A program made the position numbers and the translations under genes. This document shows positions 1,307-17,180 of a stretch of 30,062 nt of DNA, piece by piece. Location: assembly GCA_029935375.1 (NCBI GenBank), contig JAOZKL010000001.1, positions 3,290-33,351 of the forward strand. The letters run 5' to 3'. Numbering within the stretch: the stretch's first letter is position 1; every line of letters begins with the position of its first letter. This DNA comes from Patescibacteria group bacterium. Lineage in GTDB: Bacteria; Patescibacteriota; JACMRA01. The notes below the pieces were generated by a model. It saw nothing but the letters and a program-made list of their open reading frames with translations, made no database searches and was not told the DNA's origin.

Positions 1307-2269
1307 ATGAAAGTTTTATTTGTCTATCCCCGTAAAGGTTTGTTTCAACTCACACAATGTAGTGAATGTCGTTATATATCTAAATGTCATTATTGTGATA
1401 CGAATTTGACGACATATCGTAAAAATACTAATAGTTTAGAGTTGATTTGTCATCAATGCCAATCGTATTACAGTTATCCTATTAAATGTCCTGAATGTGG
1501 AGCTTTGGACTCTGTATCATCAGCTTTTGGAGGTATAGAGGAGTTGGTAGAGTCTCTACAGAAGCATTTACAAGTTAAAGTTAAGCGCCTTGATCGCAAC
1601 AAATCCAAAAAAGATTCCAATTTGGAAAAAGCCTTATTAAATTCTGCAATATATAATGCATATAGTGGTGAAATATCCGTAACTACTAGAATATTCGATC
1701 CTTCTATACCCTACTCCGTCTTTGATAAAATAATCTTTGTACAAGCAGAAAACTTATTAGCGTCTCCAGACTATCTTGTACAAGAAGATATTATTGGTGG
1801 AGTGTTTCACCTTATAAACTCCATAGATAAAGATAAAACTGAGATGATTTTTGATAGTTCTGTAAAGATTGATATATTGGAAGAATTAGCTAGAAATCCA
1901 GACGCAGGTATTGAAAATTGGTATTATAATTTTTTAGAGAGTGAGTTGGATAACAGAAAAATATTTGGTTTTCCGCCATATACTAATATGTTGTTGCTTA
2001 CCTCTCAACAGAATTCTAAAGAAAAAGCTTGGAATATGATAAAAGCTGCTCAAAAAGATCTAACAAAATCTATTTCTAAATTTGAAGGTATAAAAATAAT
2101 AGATCCCTACCCGGCACGTTTTTTAAAAAGAAAAAATAAATATTCGTATCATCTGTTGATAAAATTTCCTAGAAAATATAAGGAATTTGCAAAGTTTCGT
2201 GATATTATTTTGCAAACTTCTGGAGTTTATGGTCTGCAATCTAGATTAAATCCAAAACATTTATTCTGA
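1307..2269 (+). CDS. priA: PriA C-terminal half (motif IV, Zn-binding Cys-rich region, helicase lobe 2, CTD)
   Basis: VLFVYPRKG matches motif IV (NRRG). Four CxxC pairs: CSEC, CHYC, CHQC, CPEC. RKIFGFPPY and DPYPA..KRKNKYSYHLLIK match the PriA CTD. Confidence 0.9.
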   Translation: MKVLFVYPRKGLFQLTQCSECRYISKCHYCDTNLTTYRKNTNSLELICHQCQSYYSYPIKCPECGALDSVSSAFGGIEELVESLQKHLQVKVKRLDRNKSKKDSNLEKALLNSAIYNAYSGEISVTTRIFDPSIPYSVFDKIIFVQAENLLASPDYLVQEDIIGGVFHLINSIDKDKTEMIFDSSVKIDILEELARNPDAGIENWYYNFLESELDNRKIFGFPPYTNMLLLTSQQNSKEKAWNMIKAAQKDLTKSISKFEGIKIIDPYPARFLKRKNKYSYHLLIKFPRKYKEFAKFRDIILQTSGVYGLQSRLNPKHLF

Positions 2270-9558: not shown

Positions 9559-10254
9559 ATGATTAAACTCGTTGATGTCAACAAAAGATATAAAATTAAT
9601 GAAGAAAAAAAACATAAAGATGTTATAAATGGTATTAATCTTGAAATTGATCCAGGAGAATTTGTTATATTTATTGGCAAGTCTGGAGCTGGCAAATCAA
9701 CGCTACTAAAGATGATAACTGGAGAAGAGAGATCGACCTCTGGAGAGGTTTGGTTGGAGGATATTCGTGTTGATAAGATTAAATCAGAGTTTTTGCCATA
9801 TCTCAGGCGAAAAATTGGCGTCATCTTTCAGGATTTTAAATTATTGTCTACCAGAACAGTTTTTGAAAATGTTAGCTTGGCAATGGAAGTTGCTGGCGTG
9901 TGTAAAAAAGAGGTAGCAAAAAAAGTACCAGAACTATTAAAACAGGTTGGCATTGCAGACAAAGCCCATTATTATCCAAACGAGCTGTCGGGTGGAGAGA
10001 AACAGAGAGTGTCTATTGCAAGAGCTCTTTCACATGACCCAGTACTTTTGATAGCAGACGAGCCAACGGGTAATTTGGATAAAACAAATACCTATGAAAT
10101 AATGACTCTTTTATTAAAAATTAATAATTTAGGTACAACTGTTTTGTTAACTACCCATGATCAGGAAGTAGTCGACAAGTTAAGAAAGCGCGTTATAACA
10201 ATAAAAGACGGTCAAATAAGTATGGATCAGGAGATAGGATCTTACTATATTTAA
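9559..10254 (+). CDS. ftsE: Cell-division ABC ATPase FtsE
   Basis: GKSGAGKST, PYLRRKIGVIFQDFKLL, LSGGEKQRV, IADEPTGNLD, GTTVLLTTHD. The LRRxIGVxFQDFxLL segment favours FtsE over other ABC ATPases. Confidence 0.88.
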   Translation: MIKLVDVNKRYKINEEKKHKDVINGINLEIDPGEFVIFIGKSGAGKSTLLKMITGEERSTSGEVWLEDIRVDKIKSEFLPYLRRKIGVIFQDFKLLSTRTVFENVSLAMEVAGVCKKEVAKKVPELLKQVGIADKAHYYPNELSGGEKQRVSIARALSHDPVLLIADEPTGNLDKTNTYEIMTLLLKINNLGTTVLLTTHDQEVVDKLRKRVITIKDGQISMDQEIGSYYI

Positions 10255-10865
10255 TTGACAATATCTTTTACAGAATCTTTTAATGAGTTTACTACACTGG
10301 CAAAGTCTGGAACGTAGCTGTATGCTAAGACAAATATTATAAAAATTTCAAATATTGATAATATCAGCTTGATAGTTGTCCATGCTATCCCATTTTTTAC
10401 AGAGTCGTTTGTTTTGAATAATTGATAGAAAGGGTCTAAAATTGCTTCGTTGATAAAATAAAAGACTGTCTTTATCCAATGAAAAGGGTTTATTGTATTT
10501 ATCACACTCTTGTTTTTATTGCTCTCAAATAGACTCATCACTTCCAACAGGTTATTATATGTAATATCTGCCTTATTTAATTTAACAATATCTTCTATAT
10601 CCTCTATTGTTGAGATCTCTATGTAATCTTCTCTGTCAGTATAATTGTTTGGTTGATAGTTTAATAGTTTAGATTTGCCAGCAGCTCCAAAAATTTTCTT
10701 TATGACCATGCTTTTTAACTTTAGCTTAGCTTTTAGTTCAAACAACATATCTTTATCCCCTGTTTCGTATATCTCACAATACTGACGAAAAAGTTCGAAA
10801 TATTTTTTAAGCTGTTTGGATGAATATGTATTTTGCCAAATATATAGATCTGTGTAATGTCTCAT
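10251..10865 (-). CDS. Hypothetical protein with C-terminal membrane segment(s)
   Basis: 204-aa ORF; amphipathic NPFHWI segment and a hydrophobic stretch near the C-terminus. Confidence 0.7.
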   Translation of the reverse strand: MRHYTDLYIWQNTYSSKQLKKYFELFRQYCEIYETGDKDMLFELKAKLKLKSMVIKKIFGAAGKSKLLNYQPNNYTDREDYIEISTIEDIEDIVKLNKADITYNNLLEVMSLFESNKNKSVINTINPFHWIKTVFYFINEAILDPFYQLFKTNDSVKNGIAWTTIKLILSIFEIFIIFVLAYSYVPDFASVVNSLKDSVKDIVN

Positions 10866-10927: not shown

Positions 10928-13309
10928 TTAACTTAGAAGGCCAAATGAGCTTGTTAAATCTTCTACTATCTTTTTTTCACCAAAAATTAATATACCAAGT
11001 ATTTTAATATCATCTATGTTTTTTGATTCTTGTGACACGTTAACTTTTTTATCATCTGAGGAGTCTTGCATGTCTTGTGTAAATAATGAAATTGTCAAAC
11101 CTTTTTCTTCTGCAGACTGTTTCAATTCTAACAATACTTTATTATTTTCTTTCTCTTCCTTTATTACAATCGCATGTTGTATGTTCATTGGTATATAGGT
11201 TCCGTCCTTGGTATTAGATCCTTCTATGTCGATCAAATCTTTGCCTTTCCTAGCTGCCATTGAAGCTGACAGATGAGCAACAGTATTCATTTTAACCCAT
11301 TGCGGGGTCTTACTATCATTAAACACTACTATATGAGCTGATAATGTTTTTTTATTTTTATTACTTTTCTGTTCTTGATTTCTAACATGTGGAAAAGTAA
11401 CACATTCTTTTATATGCTTACCGAATAAGAATGAGAACAATCTTTCGCTGCTCCCCCACCCTGACAAGGGCGGCAATCCATATTCCAGGGCTTTAACATA
11501 GTCCTCGTTCATAAAGTGAGCCTCATCATCTCCTGCATCTCTTGCTGCTTGCTGATTTTCAAACCTATTATACTGATCTATAGGATCGTTTAACTCGCTA
11601 AAACCTTTTCCTAATTCTGCTGTTCCTGCAACAATTTGAAATCTTTCTGTTAGTTCTTGTTTTTCTGGATTTCGTTTTGCTAGCGGTTCTATTTCAACTG
11701 GAGGTAATGTTAAGAAGAATGGGTTGTGCATGTTTACTCTAGCCATTTTTTTATAAATTGTATCCATTACTTTGCTATATCCTGCATTTTGTTCTATTTC
11801 AATGTTGTGTGTACTTGCAATCTTTAGCATTTGATCTCTATTTTTACCTTCTAGGTCTACTTTACCACCAGAGAAATGTCGTATAGCTTCAAAATAAGGT
11901 ATCATTGGCCACCCTCCAATAAGTTTCCATCCATTTTTTTTTGCTTCTTTCTCTGTGCACCACTCACCCCAATTTATTGTATTTCCATAGTAGTCAGTTT
12001 GAATTAGAGGGCCTTTTAACTCTTTTATTATTCGTTGAAAAACTCTTTTCATGAATTTCATTCCATCTGTATAATCAGAGTATGCCCAATACCATTCAAT
12101 TTGGGTATATTCTTGTAAATGTTGTGGTGAAGACCCTTCATTTCTAAAGATGCGACCTATTTCAAATACTTTTTCAAAACCTCCCGCAATCAATCTTTTT
12201 AATGGAAGTTCCAGTGATATTCTCATATACACGTCTTGTCCCAATTCGTTATAATATGTTACAAAAGGTGATGCATCGGCTCCTCCTGGGGTAGTTTCAA
12301 ATACAGGACATTCAACTTCTAGAAAGCCTTCAGTTAACATTTCTTCTCTCCAAATTTGCCAAAATCTAGATTTTAATCTCATTAAGTTTCGTACAGACAG
12401 TCCATTGCTATCCTTTGTATTCATTTTGAAGTCAACAACTCTATTTGAATATCGTTCTTCCAGGTTCTCATATTCTAGTGTTTCTGGCAGTGGTCGCAAA
12501 GCTTTTGTTAATATTTTAAAATCCTCTACAAAGAGACTTGGCTCTTCTGTATTAGAAAAATCCACCATTCCAACAGCTTCTATATAGTCACCTTCATCAA
12601 TTAACTTAGCGAAATTTTTAAGAGTCATTGATTTTGGTTTCTCCCTGGTGTATTCTTCTTTTGTTTCTAAGTTTTGATCTTCTGCTAAATTATCTTTTTT
12701 GAATATAAACTGAAACCCATCTGGATTGGACTCGTCTTCAACTGTAGCAAACGCAATCTTACCTGCCACTCTTTTTGATTTTACTCTCCCAGATAGTGTT
12801 ATTTTTTGTCCTTTTTTGTATGATGTATCGATTAACTTGTTACTATCATCTTGTGAAAAAATGAAATAATCTTTTAAGAGGCTATACCTACCATGTTTAC
12901 TAATACCCGCCAATCCTTTAAATAGTTTTCTAGTTTCTATAATAAGGTTGTTATCTAACGGGGATTTTTGCATTTCTTCGTTATCGGGGTCTATTCCCAT
13001 ATCTTTTACAGCTTTACGTATTCTTAGCATTTCCTCTGCTTTGCCAACAAGATCTTTTGGAAGTATTACTTGATATAAAAAATATTCTAACGTATATGGT
13101 TTTATTTCTTTTTCTAATTTTTGGAGATCAATTTTATTTACAAAACTTGCCCAAAATTTCATAAAACTGAGCGAATAATCTCTTTTTGCATTTACTGCAA
13201 AGGTATTGTATCCAAAATCTTCAAGTTGCTCCATTCTTTTTATCCTAAGATCTCTCTGGTGTTTGACTGATGATAGTGAGATGTTATTGTCTTTGTTCTC
13301 TTTTGACAT
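10928..13309 (-). CDS. lysS: Class II lysyl-tRNA synthetase with N-terminal insertion and C-terminal DUF2000-like domain (start re-assigned to ATG 13309)
   Basis: OB-fold LSGRVKSKRVAGKIAF, motif 1 GFLEVECP, GGADASPF, MRISLELPLKRLIAGGFEKVFEIGRIFRNEG, TERFQ, motif 3 EYGLPPLSGWG. The ORF-track start at 13396 is a TTG inside the promoter region. Confidence 0.96.
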   Translation of the reverse strand: MSKENKDNNISLSSVKHQRDLRIKRMEQLEDFGYNTFAVNAKRDYSLSFMKFWASFVNKIDLQKLEKEIKPYTLEYFLYQVILPKDLVGKAEEMLRIRKAVKDMGIDPDNEEMQKSPLDNNLIIETRKLFKGLAGISKHGRYSLLKDYFIFSQDDSNKLIDTSYKKGQKITLSGRVKSKRVAGKIAFATVEDESNPDGFQFIFKKDNLAEDQNLETKEEYTREKPKSMTLKNFAKLIDEGDYIEAVGMVDFSNTEEPSLFVEDFKILTKALRPLPETLEYENLEERYSNRVVDFKMNTKDSNGLSVRNLMRLKSRFWQIWREEMLTEGFLEVECPVFETTPGGADASPFVTYYNELGQDVYMRISLELPLKRLIAGGFEKVFEIGRIFRNEGSSPQHLQEYTQIEWYWAYSDYTDGMKFMKRVFQRIIKELKGPLIQTDYYGNTINWGEWCTEKEAKKNGWKLIGGWPMIPYFEAIRHFSGGKVDLEGKNRDQMLKIASTHNIEIEQNAGYSKVMDTIYKKMARVNMHNPFFLTLPPVEIEPLAKRNPEKQELTERFQIVAGTAELGKGFSELNDPIDQYNRFENQQAARDAGDDEAHFMNEDYVKALEYGLPPLSGWGSSERLFSFLFGKHIKECVTFPHVRNQEQKSNKNKKTLSAHIVVFNDSKTPQWVKMNTVAHLSASMAARKGKDLIDIEGSNTKDGTYIPMNIQHAIVIKEEKENNKVLLELKQSAEEKGLTISLFTQDMQDSSDDKKVNVSQESKNIDDIKILGILIFGEKKIVEDLTSSFGLLS

Positions 13310-13331
13310 AATTGTAATAATATTTATATAT

Positions 13332-13362
13332 ATAATAAAATACCATTTTTTGATTTTGTCAA
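13332..13362 (-). promoter_or_regulatory. Probable lysS promoter
   Basis: TTGACA-19 nt-TATTAT on the minus strand; a second TTGACA (13390-13395) faces clpP. Confidence 0.45.
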
Positions 13363-13419
13363 TGTTATGGCCTAATTTTTTACAAAAGCTTGACAAAAAG
13401 TGTAAATTTATGAAAGTTT

Positions 13420-14373: not shown

Positions 14374-15858
14374 TTATTTTTCCAAATCTGTTTTACACTG
14401 TGTGTCTTGCCACCTTGGTATCTTATAATTATCTCCAGTCCACAACTCTTTTATATTATATACAGGAGTTCCCTTATTTATATTGTCATAAACAAATTTA
14501 ACGTCATCCAATGGAGTTCTTGTACAACCATGACTGCCCTTTATTTTCCAAATATCTGTGCCCATACAAGATTCAGGAAACCATCTATACGCATCATGTA
14601 TTCCATATAGGCTTCCTCGAAAATACGCCAATACTCTGTCATATTTTATATTAGCCCCATATGGCTTGCCTGTATATGGACTGATTGGTTGCCTGTCTTT
14701 TTGTTTTTTAGATACACTACCAACAATATCAGTTGGGGTTGGTGTCTTTGGACTTCCGCTAGTCATAGGAACTGAGAATACAAACATACCATCCTGATAT
14801 ACATAAAATCTTTGTGTTTCTATGTTTTGCAAGATAACTTGATTGTTATTTTCTGCCAGTTCTACAAATTTTTCTAGTTTATTTGTTTTTGTCTGTATTG
14901 GAGGTGTATTATTTATATTTATATCCCTTCCATCTTTCTCTGCACTGTTAAGTAGCTTTATCGCTCTATCTATTTTTTCTTTATCAAACTGATTCTCTAT
15001 AGTTGCTAGGTTTTCATCGTATTTTTTACCTCCCCCGATTGTATCAAATACAGTTTTTGTTATAAACTCGTTTAATTCTACAGTGGTTTTCTGAGATCCT
15101 TCTAGTTTACTCAAGATAATTTCGTTTTGGTTGTATATGTTTTTAACTTTATTTTTTAGATATGATAGCTTTTGGCTTTCTTCGATATATACAGATCTAG
15201 GTAGATATATTTCAAAATTAGTTTTATCAGTTTCTATATTTTCTTTGAGATCATTGTTTGCAGATCTAAGCATGTTAATCAAAACTTCTTTTTTTGAGTT
15301 TATATCTTTTGGTAGTTCGAATCCACTTCCACTTTGTATATTTTTGAGATTTTCTAGCGCTTGATTACAAAGATAAATACTGTTCATATTCTTATCAAAC
15401 TCTAATTTTATATTATCAATTTTAGTAGAGTGTTTTTGTTCTATGTTTTCGAAAGCTTGACTAATTTGTGATTGTTCAGAATATCCAGTTTGGTTTTGTA
15501 TGTTGAGCCATGTTACTGCTAATTGACTTGGTACTTTACGTAAATTGTCAATCTGATTACAAGTTTTTTGTAGGTTTTTTGTAGGTTTTATATAGTCAAT
15601 TTTATTATTTATTGCTTTCAGAACTTGATTACAATTTTTTGGTAGAGTTTGTGTTTTTATATTTATGTCTTGTATAATTTGTCCTACTTCACGGCCGCTA
15701 TCACTATTTACATACAAAAAACTACCTATTGCAACCCCACCACTAAGTCCCAGCATTGTTAATATTTGTAATCCTCTACTTTTATTGTTGGATATTCTCT
15801 TTTTTTCACCTAACTTTTTTCTTGTAAATCCTTTATCTTTTTGGCCTTCTTTGATCAT
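14374..15858 (-). CDS. L,D-transpeptidase (YkuD family) with N-terminal membrane anchor and long helical stalk
   Basis: C-terminal MTSGSPKTPTP, YGIHD...GSHGC catalytic His/Cys; one TM near the N-terminus. Start set at the first ATG (15858); the ORF-track start is TTG 15894. Confidence 0.88.
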   Translation of the reverse strand: MIKEGQKDKGFTRKKLGEKKRISNNKSRGLQILTMLGLSGGVAIGSFLYVNSDSGREVGQIIQDINIKTQTLPKNCNQVLKAINNKIDYIKPTKNLQKTCNQIDNLRKVPSQLAVTWLNIQNQTGYSEQSQISQAFENIEQKHSTKIDNIKLEFDKNMNSIYLCNQALENLKNIQSGSGFELPKDINSKKEVLINMLRSANNDLKENIETDKTNFEIYLPRSVYIEESQKLSYLKNKVKNIYNQNEIILSKLEGSQKTTVELNEFITKTVFDTIGGGKKYDENLATIENQFDKEKIDRAIKLLNSAEKDGRDININNTPPIQTKTNKLEKFVELAENNNQVILQNIETQRFYVYQDGMFVFSVPMTSGSPKTPTPTDIVGSVSKKQKDRQPISPYTGKPYGANIKYDRVLAYFRGSLYGIHDAYRWFPESCMGTDIWKIKGSHGCTRTPLDDVKFVYDNINKGTPVYNIKELWTGDNYKIPRWQDTQCKTDLEK

Positions 15859-15932
15859 ATAGATATATCTAGCATAATTATTTATTATATACAATAGTGG
15901 TTAATTATTAAGTTTTTTAGACTTTTCAGCCT

Positions 15933-17180
15933 CTAGTCAACATATACTAACGTCCCAATATCAGCCCATTTATATACAAATTCTACAGCAGAATGTGGTG
16001 TGTTTATACATCCGTGACTACCTCCCCATTTATAGTCATCCCCTCCAAACTTTGATCTCCAACAATCTACACTATTGCAAGAGTCGTGAATACCATAACC
16101 ACCATAGAATGGCATCCAATAATCCACCCATAACCGATAGCCATCTCCGGAAAGATATCTACCAGGAGTTTTTTGATAAATACTGAAAGAGCCTCGTACT
16201 GTTGGAGTGCTTAATTTCCCACTTGTAATATATGTAGAGAAAATCAACTGTTCATCCTCGTACAGATACATTTTCTGACTCCATATATTTATATATATTT
16301 GTTTCCATATACCCTCTTTTGGTGCTTTTGGTGGCAGCTTTCCAATCCATTTTTTTGCCTCTTGCTCTATCCACACTTCTCTCTGAGCAATTTCTTTATC
16401 GTATGTTTTTTGTTGCTCTTCTCTAGATTTGTTTAGTATTGGATACACATGCTCTTCTAATACTGATACAATCTCTTTGTAATTTTTTTTCTGATACTTC
16501 TGCAGAACTCTGATATCTTTTGCTTTGCTTAGAAATTGATTCATATCTTCTTGCTGTCCTTCCATTCCTCTTTTTTCAAAGAAGATGGCCAACTCTTCCG
16601 CTTCTGCCTCCATTTCTATTAAACTTTCAAATAATATCTTTTTCTGGGTTGTGTCAACTTGGGTCGTTAATATTGCATTCTTTTGTTCTAACTCTTTTAA
16701 CAAATCATTGTAATCATTCAAGTTCAAATCTATTTCTACAAAGCTTTCTGTAAAGTAATTTATATAGTTTTCTAGCTCTTCCCTATTCTGGATTGTAATG
16801 TTTTCTGTGTCTATAAGCTCAATTTGATAAGCTTCTAGATTCAGCTCTAGTAGCTCCCTACTCTTTTCTACCTTGCTTTTGTATTTTTTATTTAACTCTC
16901 CCTCTTTTTCTTTTGTTTGATTCGCTATATCTTTTATTTTACTATATCCAGAGAACAGTGTCATATCATCTTTCTCTGATTGAAGATATTCTAGGTCATC
17001 TTGTAGCTGGTCTAATCCGTTGTAACTAAGTTTTTCAACTGTCTGTATTCCATGGTTGATTATACTTTTAGTATCCATATAAGCTTTTGTATAGCCAGTC
17101 CCAGCTAATACTATAAATAATAGTAACAATGCAATAATTCCATATACTATATATTTGACTGTTGCCATCCCTCCCCTCAT
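15933..17180 (-). CDS. L,D-transpeptidase (YkuD family) with N-terminal membrane anchor and coiled-coil stalk
   Basis: ITSGKLSTPTVRG, YWMPFYGGYGIHD...GSHGCINTP; N-terminal TM; E/K/Q-rich helical middle. Alternative start ATG 17168 follows a GGAGG. Confidence 0.92.
   Translation of the reverse strand: MRGGMATVKYIVYGIIALLLLFIVLAGTGYTKAYMDTKSIINHGIQTVEKLSYNGLDQLQDDLEYLQSEKDDMTLFSGYSKIKDIANQTKEKEGELNKKYKSKVEKSRELLELNLEAYQIELIDTENITIQNREELENYINYFTESFVEIDLNLNDYNDLLKELEQKNAILTTQVDTTQKKILFESLIEMEAEAEELAIFFEKRGMEGQQEDMNQFLSKAKDIRVLQKYQKKNYKEIVSVLEEHVYPILNKSREEQQKTYDKEIAQREVWIEQEAKKWIGKLPPKAPKEGIWKQIYINIWSQKMYLYEDEQLIFSTYITSGKLSTPTVRGSFSIYQKTPGRYLSGDGYRLWVDYWMPFYGGYGIHDSCNSVDCWRSKFGGDDYKWGGSHGCINTPHSAVEFVYKWADIGTLVYVD

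What the first reader, a model, noticed from the sequence alone, without database searches (positions are those of the whole stretch)
10931..11350. LysRS fused to a C-terminal DUF2000-like (PTH2-fold) domain, a candidate editing or deacylase module
Seen: after the normal LysRS end (VTFPHVR) come 140 extra residues: HIVVFNDSKTPQWVKMNTVAHLSAS...DG...MNIQHAIVI...LFTQDM...ILGILIFGEKKIVEDLT. Known: this pattern matches DUF2000, which belongs to the peptidyl-tRNA hydrolase II structural clan; class II LysRS normally has no post-transfer editing domain. Inference: the domain may hydrolyse mischarged or peptidyl-tRNA in cis, which would suggest a function for DUF2000.
Basis: partly seen in the sequence, partly recalled or inferred. 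Interest (0 to 1): 0.72.

Follow-up and report, generated by a model that had tools for sequence, protein, structure and literature searches.

The report
Lysyl-tRNA synthetase with PTH2-fold tail
The only lysine-charging enzyme of this tiny-genome (Patescibacteria) bacterium carries a conserved extra end-domain of unknown function (DUF2000), built like a peptidyl-tRNA hydrolase. The fusion is common in these bacteria and apparently unstudied, and it probably removes wrong acyl groups from lysine tRNA.

Summary
One uninterrupted gene (window 10928-13309, minus strand, 793 aa from its ATG) encodes a class II LysRS. A 14-residue basic linker joins it to a full-length DUF2000 domain (Pfam E 5e-18). 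Independent contigs and a 98%-identical relative show the same junction.

The domain folds confidently (pLDDT 97). It matches Atu0240 (2GAX) best and archaeal/human Pth2 structures next, but the Pth2 sequence model does not match it.

It is the only LysRS found in this 85%-complete genome, and Pth1 is also present. Both the core and the tail are under strong purifying selection.

The fusion is widespread in Patescibacteria. Every fused partner I checked is LysRS, and the domain tree requires several fusion or fission events. Some relatives add AlaX-like, B3/4 or HD hydrolase modules to the same chain.

Asn704, His708, Asp731, Thr773, Met776 and Thr815 are conserved across the family, which suggests an enzyme.

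The function is untested. My best reading, at about 50%, is a cis-acting hydrolase of wrongly acylated tRNA-Lys. This would be proofreading or clean-up of N-blocked or peptidyl tRNA.

This scan has already noted the same fusion in at least 41 other genomes. I found no paper on it.

The parts
10928..13309 (-). lysS-DUF2000 gene, 793 aa from the ATG at 13309, with a TAA stop at 10928-10930. Residue numbers in this report follow the 822-codon ORF P0001; subtract 29 for the mature protein.
13145..13309 (-). N-terminal helix region of LysRS (residues 30-84), basic
12803..13144 (-). Insert of about 114 aa (residues 85-198) between the N-terminal helix and the OB fold. It is shared by about 45 of the 790-840-aa homologues, has no Pfam family, and is predicted helical at low confidence.
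12509..12802 (-). Anticodon-binding OB fold (PF01336, residues 199-296), with a small internal insert
11384..12460 (-). Class II catalytic domain (PF00152, residues 313-671). The best NCBIfam matches are lysine--tRNA ligase models.
11333..11374 (-). Lys-rich linker (residues 675-688). Residues 676-688 carry net charge +4 over 13 residues.
10934..11332 (-). DUF2000 domain (residues 689-821) with a PTH2-type alpha/beta fold
11273..11287 (-). Codons of Asn704 (11285-11287) and His708 (11273-11275), one helical turn apart on helix 1. Both are conserved in 99 of 101 fused and free DUF2000 sequences.
11204..11206 (-). Codon of Asp731 (the DG motif in the beta-hairpin loop), conserved in 93 of 101 sequences
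11069..11080 (-). Codons of Thr773 to Met776 (the FTxxM motif at the end of strand 4)
10952..10954 (-). Codon of Thr815 (the LT motif after the last helix), conserved in 96 of 101 sequences

Best explanation
The gene encodes the cell's working class II lysyl-tRNA synthetase with a covalently tethered DUF2000 domain. I think the tail is a small hydrolase built on the Pth2 scaffold, using its own conserved Asn-His-Asp-Thr site. On its short basic linker it could reach the 3' end of tRNA-Lys as it is charged or released, and cleave acyl esters that should not be there. The leading version is post-transfer proofreading of non-cognate aminoacyl-tRNA-Lys (about 30%). The second version is removal of N-blocked or peptidyl groups from tRNA-Lys, so that the tRNA is recharged at once (about 20%). 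Shown: the fusion, the fold, conservation, selection, LysRS as the exclusive partner, and co-fused editing-type domains in relatives. Inferred: catalysis, substrate and action in cis.
For: There is a full-length DUF2000 match. The model is confident and matches 2GAX (E 3.6e-11, TM 0.80/0.84), then Pth2 structures 2zv3, 1wn2, 1q7s, 3erj, 1xty and 1rlk (E 2e-5 to 8e-4, target TM 0.66-0.73). It is the sole LysRS in the assembly: the other PF00152 proteins are a 621-codon frame that I take to be AspRS (not scanned further) and an EpmA-like protein, and no class I LysRS passes its cut-off. pN/pS against the 98%-identical relative is 0.10 for linker plus tail and 0.04 for the core. The top 120 homologues all carry the fusion. 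In a 401-genome phylum sample, 16 of 23 genomes of the organism's own family have it, always in long frames. Ten distant fused proteins from both branches of the domain tree all have LysRS as partner. The tree forces at least 5 changes between free and fused states. Relatives add AlaX-like, B3/4 or HD modules to the same chain. Asn, His, Asp, Thr and Met are invariant in fused and truly free copies. The domain is mildly acidic (pI 5.2), unlike a generic RNA-binding appendage. Pth-deficient E. coli are limited by Lys-tRNA-Lys specifically (Heurgue-Hamard 1996, cited in PMC11994314).
Against: No biochemical data exist for any DUF2000 protein, and no paper was found. The Pth2 Pfam model does not match the tail at E <= 1, and a DUF2000 profile finds no Pth2 chain in the PDB. 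Residue-level equivalence with the Pth2 active site was not tested. The only solved member, 2GAX, has Phe in place of His708 and Ile in place of Thr773, so the proposed site is not universal. Pth1 is present here and in 393 of 401 sampled genomes, so general peptidyl-tRNA hydrolysis is already covered. Most Patescibacteria manage without DUF2000 (363 of 401). AlaX-type domains normally act on tRNA-Ala, so fusion to LysRS need not imply action on tRNA-Lys.
Confidence: 0.5

Rival explanations
1. The tail is non-catalytic. It would be a structural, dimer-stabilising, acceptor-end-holding or regulatory appendage that merely keeps the Pth2 fold.
For: The Pth2 sequence signature is absent. 2GAX lacks the His. 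Appended non-catalytic domains are common in synthetases (own knowledge). Pth2 works as a homodimer (PMC11994314) and LysRS is a dimer, so the tails could simply pair.
Against: Several polar residues (Asn, His, Asp, two Thr) are nearly invariant in fused and free copies across deep divergence. The domain is acidic rather than basic. Free-standing copies exist without any synthetase, so the domain has a function of its own.
Confidence: 0.2
2. The tail is a hydrolase for a substrate other than tRNA that arises from LysRS chemistry. Candidates are lysyl-adenylate or its side products, Ap4A-type nucleotides, or a lysine-derived ester or amide.
For: LysRS is a major Ap4A producer and HD-domain Ap4A hydrolases exist (own knowledge). 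Some relatives carry an HD domain directly after DUF2000. Free DUF2000 genes show no LysRS within the roughly 1.5-kb flanks I examined.
Against: All characterised proteins with this fold act on the tRNA 3' ester (Pth2; own knowledge). The co-fused AlaX-like and B3/4 modules are acyl-tRNA deacylase families.
Confidence: 0.13
3. The tail is a general trans-acting aminoacyl- or D-aminoacyl-tRNA deacylase that is only parked on LysRS, for example as a substitute for the missing DTD.
For: DTD was not found in this genome or in any of the 27 sampled genomes with a fused copy. AlaX-like domains, which act on another tRNA, are also parked on this chain in relatives.
Against: DTD is missing from 366 of 401 sampled genomes whether or not they have DUF2000. 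All four genomes of family f20 have both DTD and a free DUF2000. The partner is LysRS every time, including in separate branches of the tree.
Confidence: 0.08
4. The fusion is an assembly or frameshift artefact joining two genes.
For: There is a run of A's in the linker region.
Against: The frame is continuous. Contigs from other runs are identical across the junction. An independent 18-kb contig and more than 100 homologue clusters at about 50-60% identity share the architecture.
Confidence: 0.01

Closest known systems
DUF2000 family (Pfam PF09391); solved member Atu0240 of Agrobacterium tumefaciens, PDB 2GAX
   Same: The sequence family matches (65.7 bits; profile against 2GAX E 1e-12) and so does the fold (TM 0.80/0.84). 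The Trp, Asn, Glu-Met and Thr motifs are shared.
   Different: 2GAX is a free 135-aa protein of unknown function. It has Phe where His708 stands and Ile where Thr773 stands. The domain here is fused to LysRS.
Peptidyl-tRNA hydrolase 2 (Pth2/PTRH2/Bit1, PF01981; PDB 1XTY, 1Q7S, 2ZV3, 1WN2, 3ERJ, 1RLK)
   Same: The alpha/beta fold is the same (Foldseek probability 1.00). Its established substrate is the acyl ester at the tRNA 3' end.
   Different: There is no sequence-model match. DUF2000 is about 25 residues longer, with a beta-hairpin after helix 1 and two helices after strand 4. It has a different conserved residue set. Pth2 itself was not found over its cut-off in 401 sampled genomes of this phylum.
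Synthetase editing modules and free trans-editing factors (AlaX/tRNA_SAD, PheRS B3/4 and CtdA, ProRS INS/YbaK, DTD)
   Same: It is an appended or free small hydrolase associated with a synthetase. AlaX-like and B3/4 domains occur on the same LysRS-DUF2000 chain in relatives.
   Different: The fold is unrelated to any known editing domain. As far as I know, class II LysRS has only pre-transfer editing. No activity has been shown.
LysX (LysRS-MprF fusion) and other LysRS fusions
   Same: LysRS is used as a fusion platform, and the LysX model is the third-best NCBIfam match to the core.
   Different: LysX consumes Lys-tRNA-Lys for lipid lysinylation with an N-terminal membrane domain. Here the extra module is a C-terminal soluble Pth2-fold domain.

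Membership tests
DUF2000 (PF09391) | Match to the family HMM above the gathering score over the whole domain | tested here: met
   65.7 bits against a cut-off of 25, profile positions 3-132 of 133; 70.4 bits in the genome search
DUF2000 (PF09391) | Fold of the solved member 2GAX | tested here: met
   AF2 pLDDT 96.9; Foldseek E 3.6e-11, TM 0.80/0.84
Class II lysyl-tRNA synthetase | OB anticodon-binding domain plus class II catalytic domain, with LysRS models as best match | tested here: met
   PF01336 and PF00152 match. The best NCBIfam hits are lysine--tRNA ligase models at 400.6 and 380.8 bits.
Class II lysyl-tRNA synthetase | Score above the curated NCBIfam LysRS cut-offs | tested here: not met
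   400.6 bits against 468, and 380.8 against 427.6. The shortfall goes with the N-terminal and OB inserts and with divergence. Nine of ten other fused relatives pass.
Class II lysyl-tRNA synthetase | Motif 2 (FRNEG ... E) and the motif 3 arginine are present, and it is the only LysRS in the genome | tested here: met
   EIGRIFRNEGSSPQHLQEYTQIEWY and GLPPLSGWGSSERL can be read; recognising them as these motifs rests on my own knowledge. No class I LysRS passes its cut-off. The paralogue on contig C14 is EpmA-like. The genome is 85% complete.
Peptidyl-tRNA hydrolase 2 (PF01981) | Match to the PTH2 HMM | tested here: not met
   No PTH2 hit at E <= 1. There is none in the genome. A DUF2000 profile finds no Pth2 chain in the PDB at E <= 10.
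Peptidyl-tRNA hydrolase 2 (PF01981) | Pth2 fold | tested here: met
   Ten Pth2 chains from six PDB entries at E 2e-5 to 8e-4, probability 1.00
Peptidyl-tRNA hydrolase 2 (PF01981) | Catalytic Lys and Asp (K18 and D86 of S. solfataricus Pth2, from my own memory of Fromant et al. 2005) at equivalent positions | not testable with these tools
   No Pth2 sequence or model coordinates could be obtained for a residue-level superposition. By order of secondary structure, the equivalent places hold Trp700 and Thr773 to Met776; this is inference only.
Peptidyl-tRNA hydrolase 2 (PF01981) | Hydrolysis of N-blocked aminoacyl-tRNA | not testable with these tools
   This needs an enzyme assay.
Synthetase post-transfer editing domain | Hydrolysis of mischarged tRNA of the attached synthetase | not testable with these tools
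   Only contextual support is available.

The most novel reading that the evidence does not exclude
DUF2000 is a previously unrecognised class of acyl-tRNA hydrolase that gives class II LysRS a post-transfer proofreading or tRNA-Lys clean-up step. It would use an Asn-His-Asp site that evolved on the Pth2 scaffold and chemically resembles the Asn10-His20-Asp93 site of the unrelated Pth1. The free-standing DUF2000 proteins would then be trans-acting factors for tRNA-Lys.
Probability: 0.3. Interest if true: 0.8.

Novelty: new variant of a known kind. Interest (0 to 1): 0.55.

Why it matters
As far as I know, class II LysRS is described as lacking a post-transfer editing domain, and DUF2000 has no known function even though a structure was released in 2006. 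A recurrent fusion that involves only LysRS is a classic Rosetta-stone clue. It turns 'domain of unknown function' into a short list of testable reactions on one tRNA. If correct, it would add a new fold to the set of tRNA proofreading or recycling enzymes. It would also say something about how very small genomes protect the tRNA-Lys pool, which is the limiting tRNA when peptidyl-tRNA accumulates in E. coli. If it turns out to be non-catalytic, it is still a lineage marker for a large group of Patescibacteria.

Tried and rejected
- **Literature.** Searches for DUF2000, PF09391, Atu0240, 2GAX, 'lysyl-tRNA synthetase + Pth2' and 'CPR + editing domain' found nothing relevant. The Powers 2005 Pth2 paper is not held.
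- **Sequence link to Pth2.** The profile search of the PDB found only 2GAX.
- **Obtaining Pth2 sequences.** I looked for Pth2 sequences for a profile-profile alignment, but there were none over the cut-off in 401 genomes of the phylum. Residue-level mapping of the Pth2 active site was therefore not done.
- **Locus search.** The genome-contig search with the 89-row alignment failed for lack of conserved stretches. A 25-row alignment worked.
- **DTD replacement idea.** There was no discrimination, because DTD is rare in the whole phylum and co-occurs with free DUF2000 in one family.
- **Pth1 replacement idea.** Rejected, because Pth1 is near-universal. That tally includes one unpublished genome, G154, and does not depend on it.
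- **Gene neighbourhood of free DUF2000 copies.** No LysRS lies within the roughly 1.5-kb flanks I examined.
- **Short 'free' hits.** P0122, P0132 and P0135 sit at contig edges and are probably fragments of fused genes. I therefore counted only copies from genomes with upstream stops as free.
- **T-box or other leader.** There are no Rfam hits and no tRNA genes in the window. The leader is about 50 nt behind a TTGACA that I read by eye.
- **N-terminal insert.** There was no Pfam hit. The AF2 model was too poor (pLDDT 56, pTM 0.27) to use for a fold search.
- **AlaX-like module of relatives.** It is not the orthologue of the split AlaRS subunit in this window (21-24% identity).
- **Complex prediction.** Not run, because a pass would not have separated the rival hypotheses.
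Full report
**What is there.** The minus-strand ORF 10928..13396 is open for 822 codons. Relatives, including a 98%-identical protein, start at the ATG at 13309, which gives a 793-aa product. Residue numbers below follow the 822-codon ORF.

Pfam places the following domains:
- an OB anticodon-binding fold at 199-296;
- the class II catalytic domain at 313-671 (E 1e-55);
- a full-length DUF2000 domain at 689-821 (65.7 bits, E 5e-18).

The best NCBIfam matches for the core are lysine--tRNA ligase models. These align to the very end of their profiles at residues 673-674. The LysRS is therefore complete. A 14-residue linker follows (residues 675-688; net +4 over 676-688), and then the extra domain.

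**Is the fusion real?** The linker DNA contains an A-run, so I checked it in three ways.
- Contigs of three samples from a hydrothermal-vent metagenome study cover the junction with no substitutions or indels. These may include the source sample.
- An independent 18-kb JGI contig carries the same gene in the same neighbourhood (two YkuD genes, a 113-aa gene, ClpP).
- Against that relative, pN/pS is 0.06 for the N-terminal part, 0.04 for the OB and catalytic part, and 0.10 for linker plus DUF2000. All parts are therefore under purifying selection.

**Fold.** I built an 89-sequence alignment of the domain. AlphaFold2 gave pLDDT 96.9 and pTM 0.89. Foldseek against the PDB gave these results:
- Atu0240 (2GAX) first, at E 3.6e-11 and TM 0.80/0.84;
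- then only Pth2 structures (2zv3, 1wn2, 1q7s, 3erj, 1xty, 1rlk), at E 2e-5 to 8e-4;
- then noise.

By sequence, only 2GAX is found in the PDB, even with a profile. The Pth2 Pfam model does not match. So the protein has the Pth2 fold but is not a member of the Pth2 family. Compared with Pth2, the model has an extra beta-hairpin after helix 1 and two short helices after strand 4 (the comparison rests on my own knowledge of the Pth2 topology).

**Genome context.** The assembly is 0.91 Mb in 121 contigs and 85% complete.
- It holds one DUF2000 copy, which is this one.
- It has a normal Pth1, but no Pth2 and no DTD.
- No class I LysRS passes its cut-off.
- The other class IIb proteins are a 621-codon frame that I take to be AspRS (not scanned further) and a 341-aa EpmA/GenX-like protein.
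- The fused gene is therefore the only LysRS found.
- The window has no T-box, other Rfam element or tRNA gene.
- Neighbouring genes are clpP (divergent), ftsE, radA, tuf and two YkuD transpeptidases. None suggests a function.
- The window reads well under the standard code.

**Distribution.**
- A search with residues 560-822 gave 3921 hits. All of the top 120 clusters carry LysRS plus DUF2000.
- Named records include Peribacteria, Magasanikbacteria, Gracilibacteria, SR1, Uhrbacteria, Nomurabacteria and Saccharibacteria-labelled MAGs.
- In an even sample of 401 genomes of the phylum, 38 have DUF2000.
- In the organism's own family, 16 of 23 have it, always in frames of 573-1049 codons.
- Elsewhere there are both fused copies (about 610-670 aa) and truly free copies (144-179-codon frames). 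Two genomes have both.
- Pth1 is in 393 of 401 genomes and in 23 of 23 of the own family (one of the 401, G154, is unpublished and does not affect the conclusion). The tail therefore does not replace Pth1.
- DTD is in only 35 of 401 genomes. It is in none of the 27 with a fused copy, but in all four genomes of one family that has free DUF2000. This does not discriminate between hypotheses.

**Partner specificity and history.**
- A domain-only search of 1.84 billion representatives found 87 relatives.
- Nine long proteins scanned with Pfam have the class IIb synthetase core.
- Ten full-length distant proteins, from both main branches of the domain tree, have LysRS models as best match. Nine of them are above the curated cut-offs.
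- A maximum-likelihood tree of 101 domains splits 100/100 into a nearly all-fused clade that contains this protein, and a mixed clade where fused and truly free copies interleave.
- Well-supported branches force at least five changes between the free and fused states.
- Three short apparently free hits turned out to lie at contig edges, so I did not count them as free.

**Extra modules in relatives.**
- LysRS-DUF2000-AlaX-like (C-terminal part of PF01411 plus tRNA_SAD).
- LysRS-DUF2000-HD.
- LysRS-B3/4-DUF2000.
- One protein with a further 220-aa tail of unknown type.

The AlaX-like module is only 21-24% identical to the split AlaRS subunit encoded at 18004-18999 in this window. It is therefore a separate paralogue. 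AlaX and B3/4 are aminoacyl-tRNA deacylase families, by my own knowledge.

**Conserved residues.** Across 72 fused and 29 short or free sequences, these are nearly invariant:

| Residue | Conserved in |
|---|---|
| Asn704 | 99/101 |
| His708 | 99/101 |
| Asp731 | 93/101 |
| Met776 | 98/101 |
| Gly801 | 96/101 |
| Gly806 | 97/101 |
| Thr815 | 96/101 |

- Thr773 is conserved in 80 of 101.
- These residues hold in almost all of the 11 truly free copies from genomes; the exceptions are one Asn704-to-Asp and the Thr773 position in three copies.
- Trp700, Asn738, His741 and Asp782 are further conserved in the fused clade.
- 2GAX has Phe at the His708 position and Ile at the Thr773 position.
- The domain proper is mildly acidic, at pI 5.2.
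- A set of invariant Asn, His, Asp and Thr residues suggests an enzyme. It recalls the Asn10/His20/Asp93 chemistry of the unrelated Pth1 (PMC4929431). This is analogy only.
- I could not superpose the model on Pth2 residue by residue.

**Interpretation.** The following points favour a catalytic module that acts on the acyl ester of tRNA-Lys:
- the fold;
- LysRS as the exclusive and recurrent partner;
- editing-type domains co-fused in relatives;
- the invariant polar residues;
- purifying selection on the tail.

Two versions are open. One is proofreading of mischarged tRNA-Lys. The other is removal of N-blocked or peptidyl groups. The second version is attractive because Pth-deficient E. coli are limited by Lys-tRNA-Lys specifically (Heurgue-Hamard et al. 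1996, listed in PMC11994314). It is weakened by the universal presence of Pth1. Non-catalytic, non-tRNA and 'parked trans-factor' readings remain possible. Nothing here is biochemical evidence.

**Novelty.** The architecture is visible in public protein databases. NCBI even names some of these proteins 'DUF2000 family protein'. I found no paper on DUF2000 or on this fusion. This scan has already noted the same fusion on other DNA: 41 notes in at least 41 genomes. The present window is therefore one more member of that set. It is distinguished by a conserved N-terminal insert of about 114 aa of unknown fold.

Noticed in passing
window 12803-13144 (-), residues 85-198 of the same protein: A conserved insert of about 114 aa lies between the LysRS N-terminal helix and the OB fold. 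Its motifs are FWF and YFLxQVLFPxSLxE. It is shared by about 45 of the 790-840-aa homologues and absent from the 640-680-aa ones. It has no Pfam family, and AF2 predicts helices at low confidence (pLDDT 56).
   Followed up: partly
homologues P0079 and P0094 (alignment), inside the OB fold: Two relatives carry a further insert of about 100 aa within the OB domain, with a KTIETRxLNPxExERYFG motif. By eye it resembles an ASCH/PUA-like RNA-binding domain. I did not scan it.
   Followed up: no
window 1307-2269 (+): Of 28 complete ORFs of 100 aa or more, 22 end in TAA, 5 in TAG and one, this ORF, in TGA. Under table 25 it would run on to 2326.
   Followed up: partly
window 10251-10865 (-): A 204-aa ORF lies 62 nt downstream of lysS on the same strand. 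It has no Pfam match and a hydrophobic C-terminal segment. It may be co-transcribed.
   Followed up: no
window 18004-18999 (-): A free-standing AlaRS C-terminal (editing-type, HxxxH ... CGGPH) protein. It is only 21-24% identical to the AlaX-like modules that relatives fuse behind LysRS-DUF2000.
   Followed up: partly
G000 contig C14, locus L005 1480-2505 (-): An EpmA/GenX-like EF-P lysine ligase paralogue (280 bits, just under the cut-off of 286.9) is present in this very small genome.
   Followed up: partly
window 14374-17180 (-): Two adjacent large YkuD-type L,D-transpeptidase genes (506 and 415 aa). They are conserved in the same order in the 98%-identical relative.
   Followed up: no
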